This document shows positions 1 to 40,015 of a stretch of 40,015 bases of DNA, piece by piece. The position numbers were made by a program, and so were the translations under genes. Origin of the DNA: a phage; the sequence record PV889368.1; one strand, given 5' to 3'. Numbering within the stretch: position 1 is the stretch's first letter; each line of letters begins with the position of its first letter. Under the pieces are notes generated by a model. That model ran no database searches and had not been told where the DNA came from. It worked only from the letters and a program-made list of their open reading frames with translations.

Positions 1-1483
1 GGCCTAATCCGACGCTTCCAAAATACTTGTTTCTAATAACCTTGATAGTACCAGCATGACTATAACGACAGTCAAAGCCACCCCCGCTTGCACCAGAGTT
101 CTCTACGTTAGCATACAGTAGGTTATTGTAGTCACCGGAGAATTGGAAACCGCTGTACTCCTGCCCGTTGGAACTAGGATCGCCTAACGCTAAACCTAGA
201 GCCATTACGGAGTAGTTAGTCTTATTAGCCATAATACCTTCCCGACCCCAATTCTCAATTCGGTCAGCGATGAATTGCGAGTAGTGGCATTCATGGAAGA
301 ACAGGGCACCCGCAGATTCAGTACGGAACCCATCGGGGGACAGTACAGGCGTATAGGTACGGCTGAAGTAGTTACTGTGCGCGTACTTAACGTATACATT
401 CACTTTCGGGCATTGTATTAAATACAATAAGTGCGTACCTACGTTAGCGCCGGACTGGCCAGCCTTATTACCGTCCACTTCATTAATATACACCTGAAGA
501 CCCCGCGTGTTGTTGTACGCATACAGGGCCCGGTCAAAGTCAACGCAACCATCTGGTAAGCTCATCTTGCCATAGATGAATACTTCTTTTGCATTAGATA
601 AATTAATATTCTTGGCTACCAAATTAAATCCGGCAGGCACAATTAAAGTCCCTGTTTCATCAACCATAGCCTGAGCAGCAGCAGAAGATTCTACCCCATT
701 TACTGCACCCCAATCTGCAACAGTAGGCTGCTCTTCATTTTTATCATGCTGAGTACGTGGTACCGCGCTATAAGATGACAGTCTTACACCAACTATCCTA
801 TCTCCTAACATTTCGTCTTGAGTTGATGACAGATCTGAACGCAACGATGCGTCGCCAACACTAACCCACGCGCCTAACCCAATGCCACCAGACGTTTCAG
901 GTGTTGAACCAGCAGGAACGTTCTTTGGAAGAGTACCATCCCAGCGGTAATACTCACCATCCTCTTCCCATAGCAGTACCTCGTTCAATTTTGTAACGTT
1001 GAAGCCTTTTTCAAAGGATCGACGGGTCATATAGCCAAGTTTACTGGCTGCCTTGATATTCTCAGCGATTCGTCGTGCTTCGTCCTCACTATCCTTAGCG
1101 TTGCTAGCATAGCTACCAGCAGCATCGGAATATTCCTTCGCTAAGTCAACAGTTTGGTCTCGACCTTCTTCTGCAATATGGATAGCCTGAAGCTCTGCAT
1201 TTGTCAGGTCACTAGCTGTCAACACTGAGCCATTCCTGAAGTCTACCACTAAGTCAGTTCCAGTCTGACGGTGAATACGAACGATGTCGAAACCTGATTG
1301 GTCAACCAACATCTCAATCTTCGTTGGATCAAGGAATCGGTAATCTCTACCAGCTTCCAGTACCCGGTTCAGGGCAGGGTTAGAGCTATTCACCAGCGTA
1401 ACAACAACAAACGTTCTGGCTAGGTAGTCGAACTCAATCCTGTACTGAGTGTTTCCTGAAGGGAATTGTGTAATCGTGGACAT
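1..1483 (-). CDS. Tail fiber/tailspike gp17, 5' portion (N-terminal ~494 aa). The ORF runs off the window start and continues at 39888..39320 through the end overlap, about 683 aa in total
   Basis: ATG at 1483..1481 preceded by AAGGAGG; N-terminus [30 protein letters not shown] resembles the T7 gp17 N-terminal adaptor domain; no stop before the window edge; the frame continues exactly into the 39320..39862 ORF. Confidence 0.85.
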
Positions 1484-17185: not shown

Positions 17186-17208
17186 AGTCCCTATAGTGAT
17201 AGTTTAGT
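17186..17208 (-). promoter_or_regulatory. Phage RNAP promoter (phi6.5-like)
   Basis: Minus strand CACTAAACTATCACTATAGGGACTTTAGG. Confidence 0.85.
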
Positions 17209-17334
17209 GTTTCACCTATGGATGACTGTTGGATTGATAGGATATGACTATCGGTTAGACTCAGTGTTTAGGGCGGTTGTTCGACCCGAACCACTTGTAC
17301 ATGCAGTAAAGGGCCAGAAGTCCGGCCCAGTAGA

Positions 17335-18204
17335 TCACATGGATGGTGTCCACAGGATGACCTCCTTGGACTTAGGGTCATAGTCAGAGGCTCGACAAAT
17401 ACGAGCGACCTGAGCTTGGACCAGAAGTTCCTCCTCGGTCATGCCAGCCTTAGCAGCCAGTGTAACCATGCAGTCCCACAGCGTCATGTCTTCACGCTTA
17501 GGATACTTCTTCCACTCAGTCTTAATCTGTCCTTTGTTCTTGCCAGTCTTAAGCTCACGGCTCTCCTGCACGAAGTAGTACGGATCGTTAAGGAATGCAC
17601 GAGTGGTGTCCTCACCCATTCCCGGAATGCCACCGTAGCCATCTGTAGTATCACCCTTGATGGTCTGCTCCATGTGCCAGTAGTCTGCCTCGGCAGTCGT
17701 ATGACTCAGGATTTCACCAGTGGTTAACCAGAAGAACTCACAGTTCGGGATTGTCTTGAAGTCCTTGTCACAGGACACCAGAACCGCATGGTCGCAACCT
17801 ACAATCTGAGGTCGTGTCCCGATGATACCCATACAGTCATCACCCTCAAGCGTAGGACGCAGGAAGCTGTTGAACCGTGGGTCAGCCATTACTTCGGCTA
17901 CGAACTTCTTGTAACCTACAGGCTTGCGAGAACCTTTACGGTTGGCCTTATAGGTAGGCAGAACGTCCTTACGCCAGTTGTTATCGTCCGTAAAGCACAT
18001 CACAATCTTAGCGTCTTTCCACGCCTTGCGCTTCTTAACGATTTCAGCGATGGTGTTCTCAAGGATACGGCGAGCCTTCTCGTGGTCGCAGATAAGGGTC
18101 CAGATGTCATCTCCCCAGTCTGTCTCGTCCTCGGCAGCAGCCATAGAAGAGAAGACCAGATAGTCACCATCCAGAACCAGAGCTATCTTCTTATTCGAAG
18201 TCAT
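17335..18204 (-). CDS. 5'-3' exonuclease (gp6)
   Basis: DGDYLVFSSMAAAE, CDHEKARRILE, SCDKDFKTIPNC, TIKGDTTDGYGGI and KAGMTEE match T7 gp6. Confidence 0.93.
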   Translation of the reverse strand: MTSNKKIALVLDGDYLVFSSMAAAEDETDWGDDIWTLICDHEKARRILENTIAEIVKKRKAWKDAKIVMCFTDDNNWRKDVLPTYKANRKGSRKPVGYKKFVAEVMADPRFNSFLRPTLEGDDCMGIIGTRPQIVGCDHAVLVSCDKDFKTIPNCEFFWLTTGEILSHTTAEADYWHMEQTIKGDTTDGYGGIPGMGEDTTRAFLNDPYYFVQESRELKTGKNKGQIKTEWKKYPKREDMTLWDCMVTLAAKAGMTEEELLVQAQVARICRASDYDPKSKEVILWTPSM

Positions 18205-18631
18205 CGTCCAGACCTCCAGTAGCCATAGCGACCGTAGCTGGCATCACGGAAACTTTCGGCTCCTTAATACGTTCGAGAGTCACCTCAGGCTTCAGCCATT
18301 TGTTGGCGAACTCATGGGCCATGTCGTTGTCCTCTGAGTTGAGGTGTGACATCAGGTTCCAGAAGTTTGAAGACATCTCAGTCTCCTTCTCAACCGGGCG
18401 ATATACGCCCCAGTCATTTACCTCTGAACCATAGCGGTCACTCCACATGCCACTGGCTACGATGGTCAGCCCGATGAACGGACGCCACTCATAAGCCTCA
18501 GCGGGAGACTCGGTGCATGACTCAACGTCCTTCTCGGTCAAGGTGTATGACCAAGATGCGTAGAACTCAGCGTACTTGCGGCACTCACCCATTTCAAGGA
18601 CCAGCTCTTTCAGACTTTCAGGTATCTTCAT
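18191..18631 (-). CDS. Hypothetical acidic protein in the gene 5.9 position (146 aa), not similar to T7 gp5.9
   Basis: ATG 18631..18629 with GGAGG RBS, ATGA overlap with the gp5.7 stop; ends LDDDFE. Confidence 0.55.
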   Translation of the reverse strand: MKIPESLKELVLEMGECRKYAEFYASWSYTLTEKDVESCTESPAEAYEWRPFIGLTIVASGMWSDRYGSEVNDWGVYRPVEKETEMSSNFWNLMSHLNSEDNDMAHEFANKWLKPEVTLERIKEPKVSVMPATVAMATGGLDDDFE

Positions 18632-18837
18632 AGACAGCCTCCGTGTTGGTTCAGGAACTTGGTGCCAGCAGCGGTAATCTCCCACGCACCGTTGTTACGC
18701 CCATCCATAGACAGGCAGCTTAGATGTCCACGACTCGCAGCCTCAGCCACCAGTGCTGCATTATTGCGCACGTAGTTGGACTGAAAGGTCTTCGGGCAGG
18801 ACTTAAGGGCCGCTAGGACCCGTAAGTATTCACTCAT
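18628..18837 (-). CDS. gp5.7
   Basis: MSEYLRVLAALKSCPKTFQSNYVRNNAALVAEAASRGHLSCLS... is near-identical in pattern to T7 gp5.7. Confidence 0.9.
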   Translation of the reverse strand: MSEYLRVLAALKSCPKTFQSNYVRNNAALVAEAASRGHLSCLSMDGRNNGAWEITAAGTKFLNQHGGCL

Positions 18838-19118
18838 TGCTTGACCTCGAATCTCAGGTTGGACACGCCGAACTGGCCATCACCAAAGGTGTCTACCAGC
18901 TCCTCTTTGATGCTCTTCTTGGCGACAATTTCAAGGGCAGACTCAGGGCCTGACTCGATTGCTGCTTTGACCAGAGCCAACTGAAGCCCATCCAGCTTCT
19001 CACCATCAGCGTAGGCTTTAGTCATCTCAGCCAGTTGGCGACACATGGTCTCTTCTTCATTTGAGTTGACAACCATCTTCAGGTCGAAACTTACACGAAT
19101 ACGTTTAGTAATAGCCAT
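18834..19118 (-). CDS. gp5.5-like (H-NS-binding protein family)
   Basis: Start moved to ATG 19118 (AAGGAG RBS); MAITKRIRVSFDL resembles T7 gp5.5 MAMTKKFKVSFDV. Confidence 0.7.
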   Translation of the reverse strand: MAITKRIRVSFDLKMVVNSNEEETMCRQLAEMTKAYADGEKLDGLQLALVKAAIESGPESALEIVAKKSIKEELVDTFGDGQFGVSNLRFEVKQ

Positions 19119-19135
19119 TAGTGTTACTCCTTTCG

Positions 19136-19291
19136 TTAATGACATTCTTTCCACGTGGGTCCAATCTTACCCTCAGTATCAAGAACACATTTAAAGTTAT
19201 AGAACTCACCCACCTTACGCATAGCAAGTTGAGCAATCTTGACGACTTCTTCGGCAATCTCCTGAGTACGACACGCAATTTGTAACTCATC
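19136..19291 (-). CDS. DNA polymerase gp5, exon 2 (C-terminal 51 aa)
   Basis: Translates to DELQIACRTQEIAEEVVKIAQLAMRKVGEFYNFKCVLDTEGKIGPTWKECH, matching the T7 DNAP C-terminus DEIQVGCRTEEIAQ...NFRCLLDTEGKMGPNWAICH; in frame with exon 1 once the intron is removed. Confidence 0.8.
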   Translation of the reverse strand, partial: DELQIACRTQEIAEEVVKIAQLAMRKVGEFYNFKCVLDTEGKIGPTWKECH

Positions 19292-19641
19292 CTTTCTGTA
19301 TTCTCCCATTACTGGAAGTGTCGGACTATATCATCAGTCTTTGAGGTGACTGTCTGGCGCTTCGGGTTACGTGGGAATCTCACCCACGGCCCTACTCCTT
19401 TCGGATAGTCTCTACGCCTTCCACTCTCTAATCCACCCACAGGCGGCTGAGAACGCCACATTGAATATTTCGGAAGTATCCATCCTGATTCAATTTATGT
19501 GACGTAGGGATTATGCAGCCAGTCTCAGTGGCCTCAAGAATTAACTTCTTGCCTCTCATACATCCTCCCTATGGCTTGGCTCGGTATTGTCCCATTAGGA
19601 GTTCACCGAGTTCACCAGATTTAATGTGCACCATGATGTTA
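19292..19641 (-). ncRNA. Candidate ORF-less group I intron (350 nt) interrupting the DNA polymerase gene
   Basis: Exon 1 ends in U (..GUGCAU); the intron contains GUGCAC able to pair with it including a terminal U-G wobble (P1); the last intron base is G; R-like GUAGAGACUAUCC and S-like GAUAUAGUCC elements occur in that order ~30 nt from the 3' end; no ORF inside. Confidence 0.7.
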
Positions 19642-21657
19642 ATGCACCCATGCCATGTACGCAAAGTCACCTTCCCAGCCGTGAACATACCCTGCCTCTT
19701 CGAGCATACGTTCAGTCTCCACAATCCAGTGCTTACAGACTACCGCACCATCACCTTGAAGTAAGGCGTTCAGTGCTGAGTGTGGAGACCGGATGTGGAT
19801 ACGGCGACCATCAAGTCCACGCAACCAACGGCGCTTCCACTTGACGATATTCTCACCGTCCACCCACTTAGAGTCCGAGATTAACGTATTACTCACAGCT
19901 TCCCTGAGGTCCTTGATGGCTGGTGTACCCTCAATGAATTTCTTCATGAGAGCTGAACCTTCCTTCTTACCACCTCCTACTATCAGTCCAATCTTAGCGG
20001 CCCCTGCACCATACAGGAACGCATAGATGAACGTCTTAGCGTTGTTACGGAAAGCCTCATGGTCGTGGTTAGACTTATCGCGTGGGACGTTAGGTGCTAA
20101 CCCAGCGTTTACTGCGTTGGCCCAGTGGATGTCACCTTCGACCACAGTCTTCGCATAGTCACCACCATCAAACGGAGCCGCTCGGTTCCCCAGACAACGA
20201 AGCTCAAGACCTGAGGCATCCACACCCACTTGAATCCAAGGGTCTGGCTTACCATCCGTCTTGTTCCAAGCTGCACCGAAAGCACCACGGCAAGTCTCAC
20301 CATATGGAGCACCGTTAGCCGGGACCTGAGCCATGTTTGGTGCGCTATGAGTCGCACGTCCGGTTACTGCCCCGCATGGGTTGATTGAACCGTGCATACG
20401 TCCGTCTGGACCTACAAGTTTCAACCATGCGTTCTTACCTTCAGCCGCCTGACCGATTCGCTTCTGTACTACCAGATACTCACGGACCAGCTCTACGCAA
20501 GCCTGAGCCTCTGCGTCTGGTAGCTTAACGTGTTCTAACGTCTCGTCATCGACTACAGGTTTCCCGGTGTCAGTGAAGTCAACAGGCTCCCAGCCACGCT
20601 CCATCAAGACTTTTGCCAAGTGGTCTCCGCTTCCCGGATTAAACTCAACGTAAATGATTGGCGTGAATGGTGCTCCCTCCATCGTGTCTCGCGTATCGAG
20701 TTCACAAGGTTCAAGACCTAAGCGTTGAGCTTTGTTCTTCGGCTTCTTAAATATGCCACCGACCTTAGGATACACGACTCGCGGATACTTCGGAAGGTCC
20801 TTACCTGTCCGTGGATGCCTGAAGAACTCCTTGCCACCCTTCGGTGCGTACCAGCTACCGAAAGTCGAACGCAGCTTGTCAAGCAACTCCGCACGCTTGA
20901 CGGTGAGTTCACGATATAAGCCTTCGACCATCTCGGTGTTCATCGGATAGCCATTACGTTCCATCTTCGCACAGGTCCACGCAGCATCATGTTCCAGACG
21001 CAACGCATAAATCTGGTCGAAAGCGAACTGTTCAGACTGGAAGTAATACTTGTCAGTCAGGAACTTCTTGAACAACGCCAGTGTGACCACAACGTCTTGA
21101 ACGTTATAGTCCAGCATCTCCTGAGACGGGAACAACCATTCGTCCCCAGCCTTATATTCGATACCTTCAGCCTTGCACTTGGCAATGTAATCGTGTTTGT
21201 ACTCACCTTTCATCTCACCGAGACGATAACCCCAAGCCTCAAGAGATTGACGTCCCATCATATTAGGTGGCAGACGACCAGCTTTCACCGCGCCCATGTC
21301 GGAGAACTTAATGTTTGGATACATCAAGCGGCCCAGCACCAAGGTATCAATCATCTTGTGTTTCGGGAAGTTAAAGCGTTTCCCAAAGTACAGACGCTTC
21401 AGCTTGTCAATAGCCGGGACGTCGTAGTTGATACCGTTGTGGAATACCAGCATACCATCAGGTGATGCGGCAATCTCTTCCACCTTCTGCACATACTCTT
21501 TGAAGCCCCCGACGATACCGACCATCGGAGCTACCCCATACTTAAGGGTCTCATTCGACTCGGCGTTAATCAGGACCCCACAGTGGAACTGGGATACTGT
21601 ATCAAGGAGACCGTTTGTCTCGATGTCAGAACCCCAGATACTCTTAAGGTCAAACAT
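19642..21657 (-). CDS. DNA polymerase gp5, exon 1 (672 aa)
   Basis: Start moved to ATG 21657 (GGAGGA RBS); GSDIETNGLL, FHNG..YDVPA, EAWGYRLGEMKGEYK, GRATHSAPNMAQVP, GLELRCL, NAKTFIYAFLYGAG and GDFAYMAWVH match T7 gp5; TAA follows WVH where T7 continues. Confidence 0.92.
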
Positions 21658-21679
21658 GGTTAATCCTCCGTTTAGTCTA

Positions 21680-21720
21680 ATCATAAAGGCCACTCGATGT
21701 GAATGACCTTGAGTCTAGAC
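21680..21720 (-). promoter_or_regulatory. Conserved late intergenic element, copy 1 (candidate RNase III site, R4.7-like position)
   Basis: Plus strand aatcataaaggccac-N-gaatgaccttgagtcta; near-identical copies at 28685..28727 and 38668..38715. Confidence 0.4.
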
Positions 21721-23600
<1,880 letters not shown>

Positions 23601-23646: not shown

Positions 23647-23669
23647 CCATCCCTAAGGTGATAGTTTAG
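23647..23669 (-). promoter_or_regulatory. Phage RNAP promoter variant (phi4-like)
   Basis: Minus strand CTAAACTATCACCTTAGGGATGGG; differs from the consensus at two positions. Confidence 0.6.
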
Positions 23670-23881
23670 GCTTTGAAGAACTGAGCCAATTGGTCAGCTT
23701 TGGTGTCAGCTTGACGTGCCTTCATGCCAGCTTCCAGTGACGCGATGGTCAGCTTGTCAGCCAGAGCAGCAGCATCAGCCGCACCATCAGCAGTCTTCTT
23801 TTCTACCTTTCGTTCCAGTACCGCAGCACGACGATAACCACGCACCACCAGACGACCAAGAAATTCGATAAGTTTAATCAC
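23666..23881 (-). CDS. Hypothetical protein (71 aa) in the gene 3.8 position
   Basis: The ORF track entry 23666..23971 overlaps lysozyme by 66 nt; trimmed to GTG 23881 with AAGGAG RBS 9 nt upstream. Confidence 0.45.
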   Translation of the reverse strand: MIKLIEFLGRLVVRGYRRAAVLERKVEKKTADGAADAAALADKLTIASLEAGMKARQADTKADQLAQFFKA

Positions 23882-28646: not shown

Positions 28647-28684
28647 GTGGTTGAATCTCCAGTAGTTTACGTTAGGTTAGGGTT

Positions 28685-28727
28685 AATCATGAAGGCCACG
28701 ACTTTGAGTCATGACCTTGAGTCTAAT
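28685..28727 (-). promoter_or_regulatory. Conserved late intergenic element, copy 2 (candidate RNase III site, R1.1-like position)
   Basis: aatcatgaaggccac-N-catgaccttgagtctaatc; see copies at 21680 and 38668. Confidence 0.4.
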
Positions 28728-28746
28728 CCTATAGTGATAGTTTAGG
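28724..28746 (-). promoter_or_regulatory. Phage RNAP promoter (phi1.1-like)
   Basis: Minus strand CCTAAACTATCACTATAGGATTAGAC. Confidence 0.8.
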
Positions 28747-33125: not shown

Positions 33126-33262
33126 AAGCTGCCGAGTATACTCTTGCGGCCCTTATAGACCGCTTTCAGGAGACGCATAGCCACATCGTGGTTTAACTGC
33201 CCGGTCTTGACCATAAGCCGGGCGTTGTTGACGTGATGCTGGCAGAGACCATAAGTTACCAT
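33116..33262 (-). CDS. gp0.4-like small protein (48 aa; T7 gp0.4 is an FtsZ inhibitor)
   Basis: Not in the ORF track; ATG overlaps the ocr stop (TAATG); MVTYGLCQHH...AMRLLKAVYKG..SILGSLHG resembles T7 gp0.4 ..VQYGLTAQ...AMAQLKELYEN..AIALESAE. Confidence 0.55.
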
Positions 33263-33771
33263 TACTCGCAGTCCTCTTCAGCAGCCGCAGGGTCGAACAC
33301 TACGTTATCGTTGACGTCTTCGACCTTCAGGTGGCGACCAATCGCATAGTGGTCTTTGGCACATGCGGTAGCGACCTCAAGAGACACAGCTTGCTCAATT
33401 ATTGCTCCTGTTTTAGCGTCAACTACCCAATACTCAGCCTCTTCGTCGCTCTCTTCAGCCTCAAACCATACCACATCCGAGCTATTAGACACATCGTTAT
33501 ACAGTGCCTCATAGATACGAGCTTGCAGTATACGCGTCACATCCTTGGTCTCAGGCATCAGCCCAGAGTCTTCAAACTCATGGTCAATACCATCAGCAGC
33601 CATCACCGTGAAAATCTCGTGGTAATAGTGCGGTACCTGACCGTCTACGACCTCATGCAGCGCATCATGGTAGTCGTCACCTTCAGCTATTTCGTCGTAC
33701 TGAATGCGCTCGTTAAATGCTTCAACAGTTGCAGCCAGCAGGTCATAGTATGCGCTAGCGTTACGTTCCAT
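33262..33771 (-). CDS. ocr: Ocr-like DNA mimic (gp0.3 family), 169 aa with an extended C-terminus
   Basis: [53 protein letters not shown] closely matches T7 Ocr [53 protein letters not shown]; about 50 aa longer than T7 Ocr (117 aa). Confidence 0.9.
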   Translation of the reverse strand: [169 protein letters not shown]

Positions 33772-38618: not shown

Positions 38619-38667
38619 AGTTGCCCTCCCGGTTTATCAGATTTCACGTAGAGTCGCCTCCACTAGT

Positions 38668-38715
38668 TAGTGTTAACCATAAAGGCCACTACATATAGTA
38701 ATGACCTTGAGTCTA
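38668..38715 (-). promoter_or_regulatory. Conserved late intergenic element, copy 3 (candidate RNase III site, R18.5-like position)
   Basis: aaccataaaggccac-N-taatgaccttgagtctaaca. Confidence 0.4.
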
Positions 38716-38719
38716 ACAC

Positions 38720-38983
38720 TTATTGAACACCATACCCTGTGTCATTATCCTCAGTCGCTGAAAGCACCTTATCGTACTCTGCGTTAAGGGCCTCCATATC
38801 AGCCAGCGTCTTCTCGTCCACAGACACCTTGCTTAACACAAAGTTGTGACGAGCTAGTAGCTTCTCAATGGCGTTGTAGAGCTGAGGTGAACGCTTAGAG
38901 TCATCCCGCAGATCTTGCAGCATGAGTCGAGCACGTTCAGTATCTAGCATTAAGAGGAACTTCTCTAAGTCCATCTGCGTCAT
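38720..38983 (-). CDS. Terminase small subunit (gp18)
   Basis: FLLMLDTERARLMLQDLRDDSKRSPQLYNAIEKLLARH resembles T7 gp18 FLEMLDTAMAQRMLADLSDHERRSPQLYNAIKLLDRH. Confidence 0.85.
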   Translation of the reverse strand: MTQMDLEKFLLMLDTERARLMLQDLRDDSKRSPQLYNAIEKLLARHNFVLSKVSVDEKTLADMEALNAEYDKVLSATEDNDTGYGVQ

Positions 38984-39319: not shown

Positions 39320-40015
39320 TTAAACCACCATATACCTAAAACTAGCCCCCGACCCAGCAGGAGAACCAGAAGCTGTAGCTATAGTACAAGAGCCGTTATT
39401 AACTGCTGATACGTAGGCATTTGCCAATGCCCCATTTGCATTAGCGGGTACAAGGATTATATGTGACCAAACATTTATGTTTGCGTCCACTATATTTGCC
39501 GTGGAGTTTCCGGCTAAGCCATTGAAGCCGCGCATATGGAGTGGTTTTTCGGGGTCCAATTGGACGTTTCTAAGTATGAACTTTCCTGTCCCTACGGCGT
39601 TTAGCCTGGTCTTGTTGTTGGCGTTGCTTGTTAAGTCGCCATTCGTTAGCGTTAACGTAGAGTTAAAAGCTGTTACGTGGGCGGAGCCGGGGTCTTTAAC
39701 TATGAAGTTGTCAACACTATTGTTATCAGCGCCGTCTGATTGGTTTATGCCTACACCCGCTGGATTTATTACGGTTGCCGATAGTACACGGTTGTTATTG
39801 CTGTTGGCTGCGAACTGGAAACCGTTAGCAGCGGAGTTAATGCTAATGATACAATCAATCACATTGTACTCGGAAGGTGAACTAGGACGGCCTAATCCGA
39901 CGCTTCCAAAATACTTGTTTCTAATAACCTTGATAGTACCAGCATGACTATAACGACAGTCAAAGCCACCCCCGCTTGCACCAGAGTTCTCTACGTTAGC
40001 ATACAGTAGGTTATT
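39320..40015 (-). CDS. Tail fiber/tailspike gp17, 3' portion (C-terminal Asn/Gly/Ser/Ala/Val-rich beta-helix-like domain); 39889..40015 duplicates 1..127
   Basis: Same frame as the ORF leaving the window at position 1; composition and repeated N.V.N / N-G-S patterns suggest a right-handed beta-helix tailspike domain (inference); stop at 39322..39320. Confidence 0.8.
   Translation of the reverse strand, partial: NNLLYANVENSGASGGGFDCRYSHAGTIKVIRNKYFGSVGLGRPSSPSEYNVIDCIISINSAANGFQFAANSNNNRVLSATVINPAGVGINQSDGADNNSVDNFIVKDPGSAHVTAFNSTLTLTNGDLTSNANNKTRLNAVGTGKFILRNVQLDPEKPLHMRGFNGLAGNSTANIVDANINVWSHIILVPANANGALANAYVSAVNNGSCTIATASGSPAGSGASFRYMVV
39889..40015. repeat. 127-bp exact duplicate of positions 1..127 (circular-assembly overlap, not a biological terminal repeat)
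   Basis: The text at 39889..40015 is identical to 1..127 and lies inside the gp17 coding sequence. Confidence 0.9.

What the first reader, a model, noticed from the sequence alone, without database searches (positions are those of the whole stretch)
18191..18631. Non-homologous acidic protein at the gene 5.9 position
T7 gp5.9 (52 aa) at this position is a RecBCD inhibitor. Here the slot is occupied by an unrelated 146-aa protein ending in LDDDFE. An acidic C-terminal tail ending in aromatic residues recalls the gp2.5 (..DYDF) and gp4 (..DTDF) tails that dock onto DNA polymerase. This could be a positional analogue (anti-RecBCD or other defence counter-measure) or a replisome-associated factor.
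Basis: inference. Interest (0 to 1): 0.5.

Follow-up and report, generated by a model that had tools for sequence, protein, structure and literature searches.

The report
Uncharacterised acidic cassette gene before exonuclease

Summary
The ORF is real: 18191-18631, minus strand, 146 aa, ending LDDDFE. It is translationally coupled to gene 5.7 upstream and overlaps gene 6 (exonuclease) by 14 nt. The genome is a K1F-like (Kayfunavirus) T7 relative.

The protein belongs to phrog_4382 (function unknown). It has no Pfam or NCBIfam match and no significant neighbour among solved structures. The 124-residue alpha/beta domain is under strong purifying selection (dN/dS 0.16), and every family member is acidic (pI 4.2-4.8).

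The tail idea fails. Residues 125-146 are predicted disordered, weakly constrained (dN/dS 0.5) and absent from family members in other genera. Unrelated proteins in the same slot carry the same tail. The final D-D-F-E is the gene-6 start region read in another frame; an unrelated protein in phage EPr2 ends identically.

The 5.7|6 junction is a cassette hotspot: empty in 24 of 80 related loci (and in K1F), otherwise holding at least six unrelated families.

New link: residues 84-114 are homologous (hhalign 96.8 %, E 2e-10) to the N-terminal module of a widespread family whose C-terminal part, in the member tested, is a bona fide Pfam gp5.9 domain.

Best guess: a non-enzymatic inhibitor of a host DNA-handling complex, with RecBCD the first candidate. 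This is untested.

The parts
18191..18631 (-). Target CDS: 146 aa plus stop, a phrog_4382 family member
   Evidence: ORF and translation. phrog_4382 at E 4e-41. 56 phage relatives at 80-95 % DNA identity.
18260..18631 (-). Folded alpha/beta domain, residues 1-124 (H5-14, E23-30, H33-39, H43-52, E56-64, E68-82, H85-96, H103-112, E116-121)
18290..18382 (-). 'SHLN' helix-loop-helix module, residues 84-114 (TEMSSNFWNLMSHLNSEDNDMAHEFANKWLK), shared with phrog_6163 proteins; the member scanned has a Pfam gp5.9 domain as its C-terminal part
   Evidence: BLASTP to the L015 protein: 13/19 identical, E 3e-7. hhalign of A3 against A4: probability 96.8 %, E 2.2e-10, 31 columns. phrog_6163 at E 9e-4. It is the only significant hit for E2-type proteins in six-frame tblastn of the window.
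18191..18259 (-). C-terminal tail, residues 125-146 (PKVSVMPATVAMATGGLDDDFE) plus stop. This is a junction-encoded module, not part of the protein family.
   Evidence: pLDDT below 50. Homologous tails occur on unrelated class B and D occupants. Absent from family members in other genera. dN/dS 0.51.
18191..18204 (-). 14-nt overlap of the target's 3' end with the gene 6 start; it encodes the final D-D-F-E-stop
   Evidence: Sequence read directly. The same ending appears on an unrelated protein in EPr2 that carries the same gene-6 allele.
18213..18217 (-). Shine-Dalgarno GGAGG of gene 6, lying inside the target ORF where it encodes Gly-Gly
   Evidence: Sequence read directly.
18638..18642 (-). 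Shine-Dalgarno GGAGG of the target, inside the 3' end of gene 5.7. The target ATG (18629-18631) overlaps the 5.7 stop (18628-18630).
   Evidence: Sequence read directly. In empty-slot relatives this same GGAGG serves gene 6.
18580..18581 (-). Site of an in-frame 12-nt (4-aa, E-x-E-H) deletion seen in this genome only, in the loop between helix 1 and strand 1
   Evidence: Alignment A1. In every fully listed megablast row the matched stretch in the relative is 12-18 nt longer than the query stretch.
18628..18837 (-). Gene 5.7 homologue (69 aa), the conserved upstream flank of the slot
   Evidence: phrog_1334 / phrog_17900. T7 and K1F annotation.
17335..18204 (-). Gene 6 5'-3' exonuclease (289 aa), the conserved downstream flank of the slot
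   Evidence: PF02739 and phrog_107.
17189..17214 (-). Phage-promoter-family copy just downstream of gene 6, in the position of T7 phi6.5. The next copy upstream is at 23651-23676, so genes 4, 5, 5.5, 5.7, the target and 6 form one transcription unit.
   Evidence: Direct-repeat family D1/D2/D4. No terminator-like site lies between genes.

Best explanation
The gene is an accessory cassette in the hypervariable junction between genes 5.7 and 6 of T7-group phages. T7 keeps gp5.9 at this same junction.

**What it encodes.** A strongly acidic protein with no sign of enzymatic activity. It consists of a 124-residue alpha/beta domain that includes a helix-loop-helix 'SHLN' module, plus a disordered tail inherited from the junction.

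**How it is expressed.** It is transcribed with the class II DNA-metabolism genes and translated by coupling to gene 5.7.

**Proposed mechanism (inferred, not shown).** The protein binds and blocks a host DNA-handling complex through its acidic surface and the SHLN hairpin. RecBCD is the first candidate. This would protect the linear replicating phage DNA or disarm a defence. I put about 0.2-0.25 on RecBCD specifically and about 0.4 on the broader class of host-complex inhibitor or counter-defence protein.

**The tail.** The C-terminal tail is not the functional element. Its end is dictated by the gene-6 ribosome-binding site and start codon.
For: **Shown**
- It is a real gene under purifying selection, dN/dS 0.156.
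- It is co-transcribed and translationally coupled with genes 5.7 and 6.
- Presence is patchy among near-identical genomes. In 80 loci with gp5.7 relatives the slot is empty in 24 and otherwise holds six or more unrelated families. K1F itself has no gene there.
- Family members also occur in unrelated Ounavirinae myoviruses and in no bacterial genome scanned. This is the behaviour of an accessory gene.
- Acidity is conserved across the family down to 22-30 % identity: pI 4.2-4.8, net charge -10 to -19. Only K19 and three glycines are near-invariant, so there is no catalytic signature.
- The same slot carries gp5.9-type proteins: L015 scores 55.8 bits to PF25708, and classes E1/E2 fall in PHROG families named 'host RecBCD nuclease inhibitor' or overlapping them.
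- Target residues 84-114 are homologous to the N-terminal module of those chimeras.
- The window has no other gp5.9-type gene.
- In the 80 loci, family A never co-occurs with the other acidic classes D and E, although it does co-occur with the basic class C.

**Background.** T7 gp5.9 is an acidic DNA mimic that blocks the RecBCD DNA-binding site (PMC9836394).
Against: - No homologue has a tested function. Among the gp5.9-type proteins named here, T7 gp5.9 is to my knowledge the only one characterised experimentally.
- The shared module is not the part homologous to T7 gp5.9, and its role is unknown.
- The target itself does not match PF25708.
- The slot also holds basic proteins of unknown function (classes B, C, F) and is often empty. 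Position alone therefore does not imply function.
- The lack of co-occurrence with classes D and E is not significant: 0 observed against about 2.4 expected, and the genomes are phylogenetically non-independent.
- Chimeras could arise simply because alleles at one locus recombine.
Confidence: 0.4

Rival explanations
1. Counter-defence or host-takeover protein with a target unrelated to RecBCD. Candidates include another defence nuclease, an SMC-type complex such as MukBEF, a restriction system, or a host regulator. The SHLN module would be only a structural or dimerisation element.
For: The accessory-gene behaviour, conserved acidity and absence of a catalytic signature apply equally to this reading. 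The library lists two papers (a 2024 preprint and its 2025 Cell version) titled as MukBEF inhibition by 'a viral DNA mimic', with gp5.9 occurring more than 120 times in each; I did not read them. If that mimic is gp5.9, proteins of this slot can have more than one target. The N-terminal domain has no relation to gp5.9.
Against: Nothing points to any specific alternative target. There was no meaningful PADLOC or anti-defence family hit, and no match to this protein's sequence motifs was found in the supplements held as text for two accessory-gene screens.
Confidence: 0.3
2. Replisome-associated factor: the acidic C-terminal tail docks onto the phage DNA polymerase in the way the gp2.5 and gp4 tails do.
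For: The gene is expressed with the replication genes. Many Kayfunavirus relatives end ...GGLDDGF with a terminal Phe after acidic residues, which loosely resembles DTDF and DYDF.
Against: - The ending is dictated by the overlap with gene 6 and recurs on an unrelated protein.
- In the window, Phe is penultimate rather than terminal.
- Endings DDGC, RDE and VFGE also occur.
- The tail is absent from family members in three other genera.
- Net charge is only about -2 over the last 26 residues, against 11 acidic residues in 28 for gp2.5.
- The tail is weakly constrained, dN/dS 0.51.
- A terminal Phe is reported as essential for gp2.5 function (titles of Ghosh et al. 2009 and Marintcheva et al. 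2009, as cited).
Confidence: 0.05
3. Modulator of a phage or host nucleotide- or DNA-metabolism enzyme, for example the gp6 exonuclease or a ribonucleotide reductase, rather than an anti-host inhibitor.
For: The gene is translationally coupled to gene 6 in Studiervirinae. In Mooglevirus Michonne the homologue lies between nrdD and nrdG and overlaps the nrdG start. SHLN+gp5.9-domain proteins lie next to ligase, dNMP kinase and dUTPase genes, or SSB and endonuclease genes, in other phages.
Against: The neighbours differ between lineages, so there is no constant partner gene. In several Przondovirus loci another gene (class C) separates it from gene 6. K1F and 24 of 80 loci do without any occupant. 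Regions of small ORFs near nrd genes are, from general knowledge of large myoviruses, themselves variable.
Confidence: 0.12
4. The shared C-terminal peptide (L-x-P-A-T-V-A-M...) is itself a functional short linear motif that tethers different cargo domains of this slot to one common partner, for example the exonuclease made from the next cistron.
For: The motif is kept on three unrelated N-terminal domains, classes A, B and D. Conserved residues use different synonymous codons (Thr ACG/ACC/ACA; Ala GCT/GCG/GCA), which suggests some selection on the peptide rather than the DNA. It is also present in the 50 %-identical members P0029 and P0030.
Against: dN/dS is 0.51 within family A. AT is replaced by YA in many relatives. 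The motif is absent from family members outside Kayfunavirus and occurs nowhere else in the proteome. It could simply be the retained 3' end of an older occupant that carries the gene-6 ribosome-binding site.
Confidence: 0.08

Closest known systems
T7 gp5.9 (Pfam PF25708, phrog_9014), RecBCD inhibitor
   Same: Same genomic slot, immediately after gene 5.7 with the same 14-nt overlap into gene 6. Strongly acidic, pI 4.5 against 4.1. Non-essential accessory character.
   Different: No sequence similarity. 146 aa with a globular alpha/beta domain, against 52 aa forming a dimeric parallel coiled coil. Activity is untested.
phrog_6163 proteins (SHLN module + GVDNW / gp5.9 domain), e.g. Cronobacter phage GW1, Providencia phage EPr2, Pantoea phage SSEM1, Hafnia phage SPARTY
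   Same: Homologous 31-residue helix-loop-helix F..L.SHLN.E[DE]N..A.EF (hhalign 96.8 %, E 2e-10; up to 15/19 identical). Acidic. In Studiervirinae, found in the same slot.
   Different: In those proteins the module is N-terminal and, in the member scanned (L015), is followed by a Pfam gp5.9 domain. In the target it follows an unrelated ~85-residue alpha/beta core, and no gp5.9 domain is present.
phrog_4382 (function unknown), e.g. Shigella phage SFPH2 gp30, Klebsiella phage P509 QKY78337, Dickeya phage Mysterion AXY81964, Citrobacter phage Michonne gp13
   Same: Full-length homology: E 4e-41 to the profile and 80-93 % identity to Kayfunavirus members. Same slot in three Studiervirinae genera.
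   Different: The window's copy has a 4-aa deletion not seen in any relative examined. The tail is specific to the Kayfunavirus junction. The Mooglevirus copy sits between nrdD and nrdG.
Acidic C-terminal polymerase-docking tails of T7 gp2.5 and gp4
   Same: A few acidic residues and a Phe near the C-terminus.
   Different: The target's tail is short, has net charge of about -2, has a penultimate rather than terminal Phe, is variable, is dictated by overlap with gene 6, and is absent from most of the family.
Phage DNA-mimic inhibitors in general (Ocr, lambda Gam, Ugi)
   Same: Small, very acidic, early or middle-expressed, accessory. This genome also carries an Ocr-like gp0.3 at 33262-33771.

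Membership tests
T7 gp5.9 RecBCD inhibitor family (PF25708 / phrog_9014) | Sequence match to the family profile | tested here: not met
   No Pfam hit at E <= 1. No BLASTP alignment to T7 gp5.9 at E <= 100. The PHROG hits are phrog_4382 and a weak phrog_6163 only.
T7 gp5.9 RecBCD inhibitor family (PF25708 / phrog_9014) | Small (~50-70 aa), all-helical, parallel coiled-coil dimer | tested here: not met
   The AlphaFold2 model is a 124-residue alpha/beta globule plus a disordered tail, against the architecture described in PMC9836394. The oligomeric state was not testable.
T7 gp5.9 RecBCD inhibitor family (PF25708 / phrog_9014) | Gene lies between 5.7 and 6 and overlaps the gene 6 start | tested here: met
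T7 gp5.9 RecBCD inhibitor family (PF25708 / phrog_9014) | Binds RecBCD at the DNA site and inhibits its helicase-nuclease activity | not testable with these tools
   Needs biochemistry or genetics. No multimer prediction tool was available.
phrog_4382 (uncharacterised phage protein family) | Full-length profile match | tested here: met
   E 4.4e-41, residues 1-125 against profile positions 6-128 of 130. The Michonne, P0038 and P0040 relatives hit the same profile.
phrog_6163 (SHLN + gp5.9-domain proteins) | SHLN helix-loop-helix module | tested here: met
   hhalign probability 96.8 %, E 2.2e-10. BLASTP E 3e-7.
phrog_6163 (SHLN + gp5.9-domain proteins) | C-terminal GVDNW / PF25708 domain | tested here: not met
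   The alignment covers only residues 84-114. No PF25708 hit. No GVDNW-type sequence anywhere in the window.
gp2.5 / gp4-type polymerase-docking acidic tail | Extended, strongly acidic C-terminal segment | tested here: not met
   Residues 121-135 have net charge +2 and residues 136-146 have -4. The window's gp2.5 has 11 acidic and 0 basic residues in its last 28.
gp2.5 / gp4-type polymerase-docking acidic tail | Aromatic residue as the very last residue | tested here: not met
   The target ends ...DFE. Relatives end F, C or E. The genuine tails end ...DYDF and ...DTDF.
gp2.5 / gp4-type polymerase-docking acidic tail | Tail conserved as a property of the protein family | tested here: not met
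   The tail is absent in Przondovirus, Aarhusvirus and Mooglevirus members. It is shared with unrelated occupants instead. Its end is fixed by the gene-6 overlap.
Phage accessory-region gene (variable gene between conserved core flanks) | Presence, absence and replacement between conserved flanking genes in closely related genomes | tested here: met
   Of 80 loci, 24 are empty and the rest hold six or more unrelated classes. K1F is empty and K11 carries a different ORF.
Phage accessory-region gene (variable gene between conserved core flanks) | Horizontal spread across unrelated phage groups | tested here: met
   Members occur in Studiervirinae and in Ounavirinae (Michonne, Sf13-18, phiSUSP1).
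DNA-mimic proteins | Conserved high negative charge | tested here: met
   All 36 members have pI 4.18-4.83.
DNA-mimic proteins | Surface carboxylates arranged like DNA phosphates, or fold similarity to a known mimic | tested here: inconclusive
   There is no fold match.

The most novel reading that the evidence does not exclude
The gene 5.7|6 junction of T7-group phages is a module-shuffling site where independent pieces are recombined into different inhibitors. The pieces are alpha/beta 'head' domains, the SHLN hairpin, the gp5.9 coiled-coil domain, and a shared C-terminal peptide. On this reading phrog_4382 proteins are a structurally new class of RecBCD (or other DNA-machine) inhibitor that uses the SHLN hairpin as its common targeting element. 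The conserved L-x-P-A-T-V-A-M tail could additionally tether such cargo to the exonuclease made from the coupled downstream cistron.
Probability: 0.12. Interest if true: 0.7.

Novelty: new variant of a known kind. Interest (0 to 1): 0.42.

Why it matters
RecBCD is a central hub of bacterial immunity, and few structurally distinct phage inhibitors of it have been characterised. Many K1F-like, Klebsiella (Przondovirus) and Dickeya T7-relatives, several of them under consideration for phage therapy, lack T7-type gp5.9 and carry this family instead.

If the family inhibits RecBCD or another DNA-handling defence, that would add a new fold to the inhibitor repertoire. It would also define a short portable module (SHLN) shared with gp5.9-domain proteins. 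It could help explain host-range and defence-sensitivity differences between near-identical phages that differ only at this junction.

The analysis also gives a practical caution. C-terminal 'motifs' of phage proteins that overlap the next gene's ribosome-binding site and start codon can be coding by-products.

Tried and rejected
- **Direct homology to T7 gp5.9.** None by BLASTP, Pfam or six-frame tblastn of the window.
- **Curated family assignment.** Pfam, NCBIfam and PADLOC gave nothing meaningful. The weak hits (PDC-M02B E 0.01, ANT(4')-Ia E 0.011) lie far below cut-offs.
- **Solved-structure relatives by sequence profile.** None for A1 or A3.
- **Acidic tail as a docking motif.** Rejected for the reasons given above.
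- **Class D occupants (PWSxELP...GDHWQGYETEF) as distant homologues of the target's G.WSD..G.E core.** hhalign probability 1.2 %, so rejected.
- **Bacterial or prophage homologues.** Two GTDB scans found none. The first used only the tail pattern, and the second could reach only close relatives.
- **Literature.** No mention of this protein in the gp5.9 structure paper, the Gabija/RecBCD preprint or the AntiDefenseFinder paper, and no match to its sequence motifs in the text-held supplements of two accessory-gene screen papers.
- **Compositional anomaly of the cassette.** None: GC is 0.52 against 0.50 for the genome.
- **Alignment-based locus searches.** These failed for lack of a conserved 7-10-column stretch.
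- **Mutual exclusivity of family A with other acidic occupants.** Observed, but not statistically meaningful.
Full report
**What the window is.** The window is a T7-group phage genome lying in reverse orientation, with its genes on the minus strand. Around the finding the gene order is: primase-helicase (21897-23597), DNA polymerase (interrupted, see below), a gp5.5-like gene (18834-19154), gp5.7 (18628-18837), the target (18191-18631) and the gp6 exonuclease (17335-18204). The closest relatives by DNA are Kayfunavirus (K1F-like) phages such as Shigella phage SFPH2 and Escherichia phage ZG49, at 80-95 % identity over the target.

**Checking the observation.** The 146-aa ORF ending LDDDFE is there.
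- Its ATG (18629-18631) overlaps the gene 5.7 stop as ATGA, with a GGAGG six bases upstream.
- Its last 14 nt overlap the gene 6 start. T7 gene 5.9 has the same geometry.
- All homologues begin M[KN]IP at this ATG, so the longer GTG-initiated ORF in the mechanical list is not the gene.
- It is a genuine gene. It matches phrog_4382 at E 4e-41 and has 56 phage relatives. Its dN/dS over the folded domain is 0.156 among six Kayfunavirus alleles.
- Copies of the phage-promoter family lie at about 23651 and 17189 with none in between. No terminator-like site lies between the genes. The gene is therefore co-transcribed with genes 4, 5, 5.5, 5.7 and 6.
- Base composition is unremarkable.

**What the protein is.** No Pfam, NCBIfam or meaningful PADLOC family matches it or its relatives.
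- An exhaustive HMMER scan of 1.84 billion representative proteins found only 24 clusters at E <= 1e-3.
- Two scans of about 186,000 bacterial and archaeal genomes found none, although the first used only the tail pattern and the second could reach only close relatives.
- The wider family shares an N-terminal core of about 85 residues (EHRKYS.FYA ... G.WSD..G.E). A subset, including the target, adds a helix-loop-helix with the motif F..L.SHLN.E.N..A.EF.
- With the deeper alignment, AlphaFold2 gives a confident alpha/beta domain for residues 1-124 (mean pLDDT 80, most blocks 85-93) and a disordered tail for residues 125-146.
- Foldseek against viral models finds only uncharacterised family members.
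- Sequence profiles find no solved structure.
- All 36 aligned members are acidic, with pI 4.18-4.83 and net charge -10 to -19. The only near-invariant residues are K19 and three glycines. This looks like a binding protein rather than an enzyme.

**The tail.** That argument does not survive.
- (i) The final codons GAC-GAT-GAC-TTC-GAA-TAA contain the gene-6 start G-ATG-ACT-TCG-AAT-AA. The preceding Gly-Gly is the gene-6 Shine-Dalgarno GGAGGT.
- (ii) In Providencia phage EPr2 an unrelated protein reads into the same gene-6 allele (MTSNKK...) and also ends ...DDDDFE.
- (iii) Relatives end DDGF, DDGC, DDEF, RDE or VFGE, tracking the gene-6 N-terminal allele.
- (iv) Family members in Przondovirus, Aarhusvirus and Mooglevirus stop soon after the domain and have no such tail.
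- (v) In Kayfunavirus genomes the roughly 20-residue segment EEP..L.PATVAMA.GGL.. (or its variant LLAATVPAMSKAKAVSDE) is attached to unrelated N-terminal domains of classes A, B and D. It therefore belongs to the junction, not to the protein family.
- (vi) Its dN/dS is 0.51 against 0.156 for the domain.
- (vii) Its net charge is about -2 over 26 residues and Phe is penultimate. This genome's true docking tails are long acidic runs ending ...GGDYDF (gp2.5) and ...WEDTDF (gp4). The literature stresses the C-terminal Phe of gp2.5 (references cited).

One residual oddity remains. The conserved tail residues use different synonymous codons in the three tail types, so some peptide-level selection cannot be excluded.

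**The slot is a cassette hotspot.** I fetched 80 viral contigs that encode gp5.7 relatives and parsed what lies between 5.7 and gene 6. The counts below are per class, and some loci hold two or three occupants.
- The slot is empty in 24 loci. In the Kayfunavirus-like empty loci, and in K1F, gene 6 uses the GGAGG inside the 3' end of 5.7.
- Class A, the target family: 9 loci.
- Class B, a K11-ORF-like family (phrog_2251): about 19.
- Class C, a basic 58-aa family (phrog_12303): about 16.
- Class D, an acidic PWSxELP family (phrog_18166): 8.
- Class F: 3.
- Classes E1 and E2, small acidic gp5.9-type proteins: 7.
- None of classes B, C, D or F has a known function.
- T7-type gp5.9 itself is confined to T7, T3 and Yersinia-type phages.
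- Family A also occurs in unrelated myoviruses of about 90 kb. In Citrobacter phage Michonne it lies between nrdD and nrdG.

This is the behaviour of a horizontally mobile accessory gene. It also means that position alone does not establish function.

**A modular link to gp5.9-type proteins.** My family HMM unexpectedly hit two short acidic occupants of the slot. Following this up gave a chain of supported links.
- The target's residues 90-108 (FWNLMSHLNSEDNDMAHEF) match the N-terminus of the L015 protein (FDDLMSHLNGEDNSLAEEF), 13/19 identical, E 3e-7.
- L015 residues 21-66 score 55.8 bits to Pfam PF25708 'Phage T7 gp5.9 RecBCD inhibitor', against a cut-off of 24.5.
- The C-terminal half of L015 matches the phiYeO3-12-type gp5.9 protein from L080 at E 5e-12. 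The N-terminal half of L080 matches T7 gp5.9 at E 5e-8.
- PHROGs puts L080 and L042 in 'host RecBCD nuclease inhibitor' families and L015 and L087 in phrog_6163. That is the family whose first 28 positions gave the target's weak second hit.
- A tblastn with the full L015 protein matched 250 phage records. Hits that span the SHLN module as well come from Ounavirinae, Chaseviridae and several Studiervirinae genera, while phiYeO3-12-type gp5.9 phages match only the C-terminal half.
- A profile of seven diverse SHLN+GVDNW members aligns to the target family profile over 31 columns (target residues 84-114) with hhalign probability 96.8 % and E 2.2e-10.
- In six-frame tblastn of the window this is the only significant hit for the E2-type proteins; the E1-type queries gave none. 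The genome has no gp5.9 domain anywhere.

The target is therefore not a gp5.9 homologue. It does share a discrete module with proteins that are half gp5.9.

**Most likely mechanism.** T7 gp5.9 is a dimeric, very acidic coiled coil that occupies the DNA site of RecBCD. Its N-terminal end contacts the RecB/RecC core (PMC9836394). In the SHLN+gp5.9-domain proteins the SHLN hairpin sits at that N-terminal end, where T7-type and phiYeO3-12-type gp5.9 carry their own N-terminal segment.

Several facts come together here. The target family keeps that hairpin on a different acidic scaffold and lives in the same slot. It is non-catalytic in appearance and behaves as an accessory gene. In 80 loci it is never found together with the other acidic occupants. 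My best explanation is therefore a non-enzymatic inhibitor of a host DNA-handling complex, with RecBCD the first candidate.

This is inference. I give about 0.4 to the general class and about 0.2-0.25 to RecBCD specifically. The points against are these:
- no tested homologue exists;
- the shared module is not the part related to T7 gp5.9;
- the fold resembles no known inhibitor;
- the slot also holds basic proteins and is often empty;
- the co-occurrence pattern is not statistically meaningful;
- chimeras may simply reflect recombination between alleles at one locus.

Rival explanations are a different host target, a modulator of phage or host nucleotide and DNA enzymes, a functional shared tail peptide, and the polymerase-docking idea, which is largely refuted.

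**Novelty.** The family is uncharacterised. I found no mention of it in the papers searched, and no match to its sequence motifs in the text-held supplements of two accessory-gene screens. The general kind, an accessory and probably counter-defence cassette at a known hotspot, is familiar. The architecture (a fold with no detectable relative plus the SHLN module) and the module shuffling at this junction are new details. I rate it a new variant of a known kind, of moderate interest.

Noticed in passing
window 19292-19641 (minus strand); Rfam hit 19302-19651: The DNA polymerase gene is split by a group I intron of about 350 nt (RF00028, 54.7 bits, E 2.5e-11). Exon 1 ends at 19642 and exon 2 starts at 19291, giving a 723-aa spliced product. 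SFPH2 has an uninterrupted gene. K1F has a two-piece polymerase CDS with an HNH endonuclease ORF in the intervening sequence, whereas this intron shows no obvious endonuclease gene.
   Followed up: partly
window 1-127 and 39889-40015: The two ends of the window are an exact 127-nt direct repeat. This is either a true terminal repeat or the k=127 overlap of a circularised assembly.
   Followed up: no
window 18580/18581 (minus strand, between codons 17 and 18 of the target): This genome's copy of the target lacks 12 nt (4 aa, E-x-E-H) that are present in all aligned homologous proteins and all fully listed phage DNA matches. The deletion is in frame and lies in a predicted loop. The His it removes is common but not invariant in the wider family.
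   Followed up: partly
window 33262-33771 (minus strand): A 169-aa, very acidic (net charge -33, pI 4.08) Ocr-like gp0.3 protein. It appears to carry a C-terminal extension of about 50 residues relative to T7 Ocr (the T7 length is from memory).
   Followed up: no
Loci L008-L087 (junction between gene 5.7 and gene 6): Besides the target family, the junction carries at least five other unrelated occupant families of unknown function: phrog_2251 (K11-ORF-like, classes B and F), phrog_12303 (basic, 58 aa), phrog_18166 (acidic, PWSxELP...GDHWQGYETEF), and the gp5.9-type E1 and E2 classes. Two or three sometimes occur in tandem.
   Followed up: partly
L011, L013, L016, L017, L022, L025, L030 and window 18191-18259: A C-terminal peptide of about 20 residues (EEP..L.PATVAMA.GGL.. 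or LLAATVPAMSKAKAVSDE) is shared by unrelated occupants of the Kayfunavirus slot, with synonymous codon differences at the conserved residues. It could be a retained 3' end carrying the gene-6 RBS, or a functional linear motif.
   Followed up: partly
L004 (Citrobacter phage Michonne) 4001-4393; class D occupant in L013: The target's Mooglevirus homologue lies between nrdD and nrdG and overlaps the nrdG start. The unrelated class D occupant weakly matches a PHROG labelled 'ribonucleotide reductase' (phrog_2294, E 8e-8). Both slot families therefore have relatives in the nrd gene clusters of large myoviruses.
   Followed up: no
L088, L091, L092: SHLN+GVDNW (phrog_6163) proteins occur outside the 5.9 slot. 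In Hafnia phage SPARTY one lies two genes downstream of a PseT-like gene. In a Pseudomonas Pifdecavirus one lies upstream of the SSB and endonuclease genes. In Pantoea phage SSEM1 one follows the ligase, dNMP kinase and dUTPase genes.
   Followed up: partly
window 21678-21723, 28676-28731, 38666-38721: A repeated element of about 50 nt (TAATCATAAAGGCCAC ... ATGACCTTGAGTCTA) occurs three times in intergenic positions, each next to a promoter-family copy or a gene start. These could be RNA-processing or regulatory sites.
   Followed up: no
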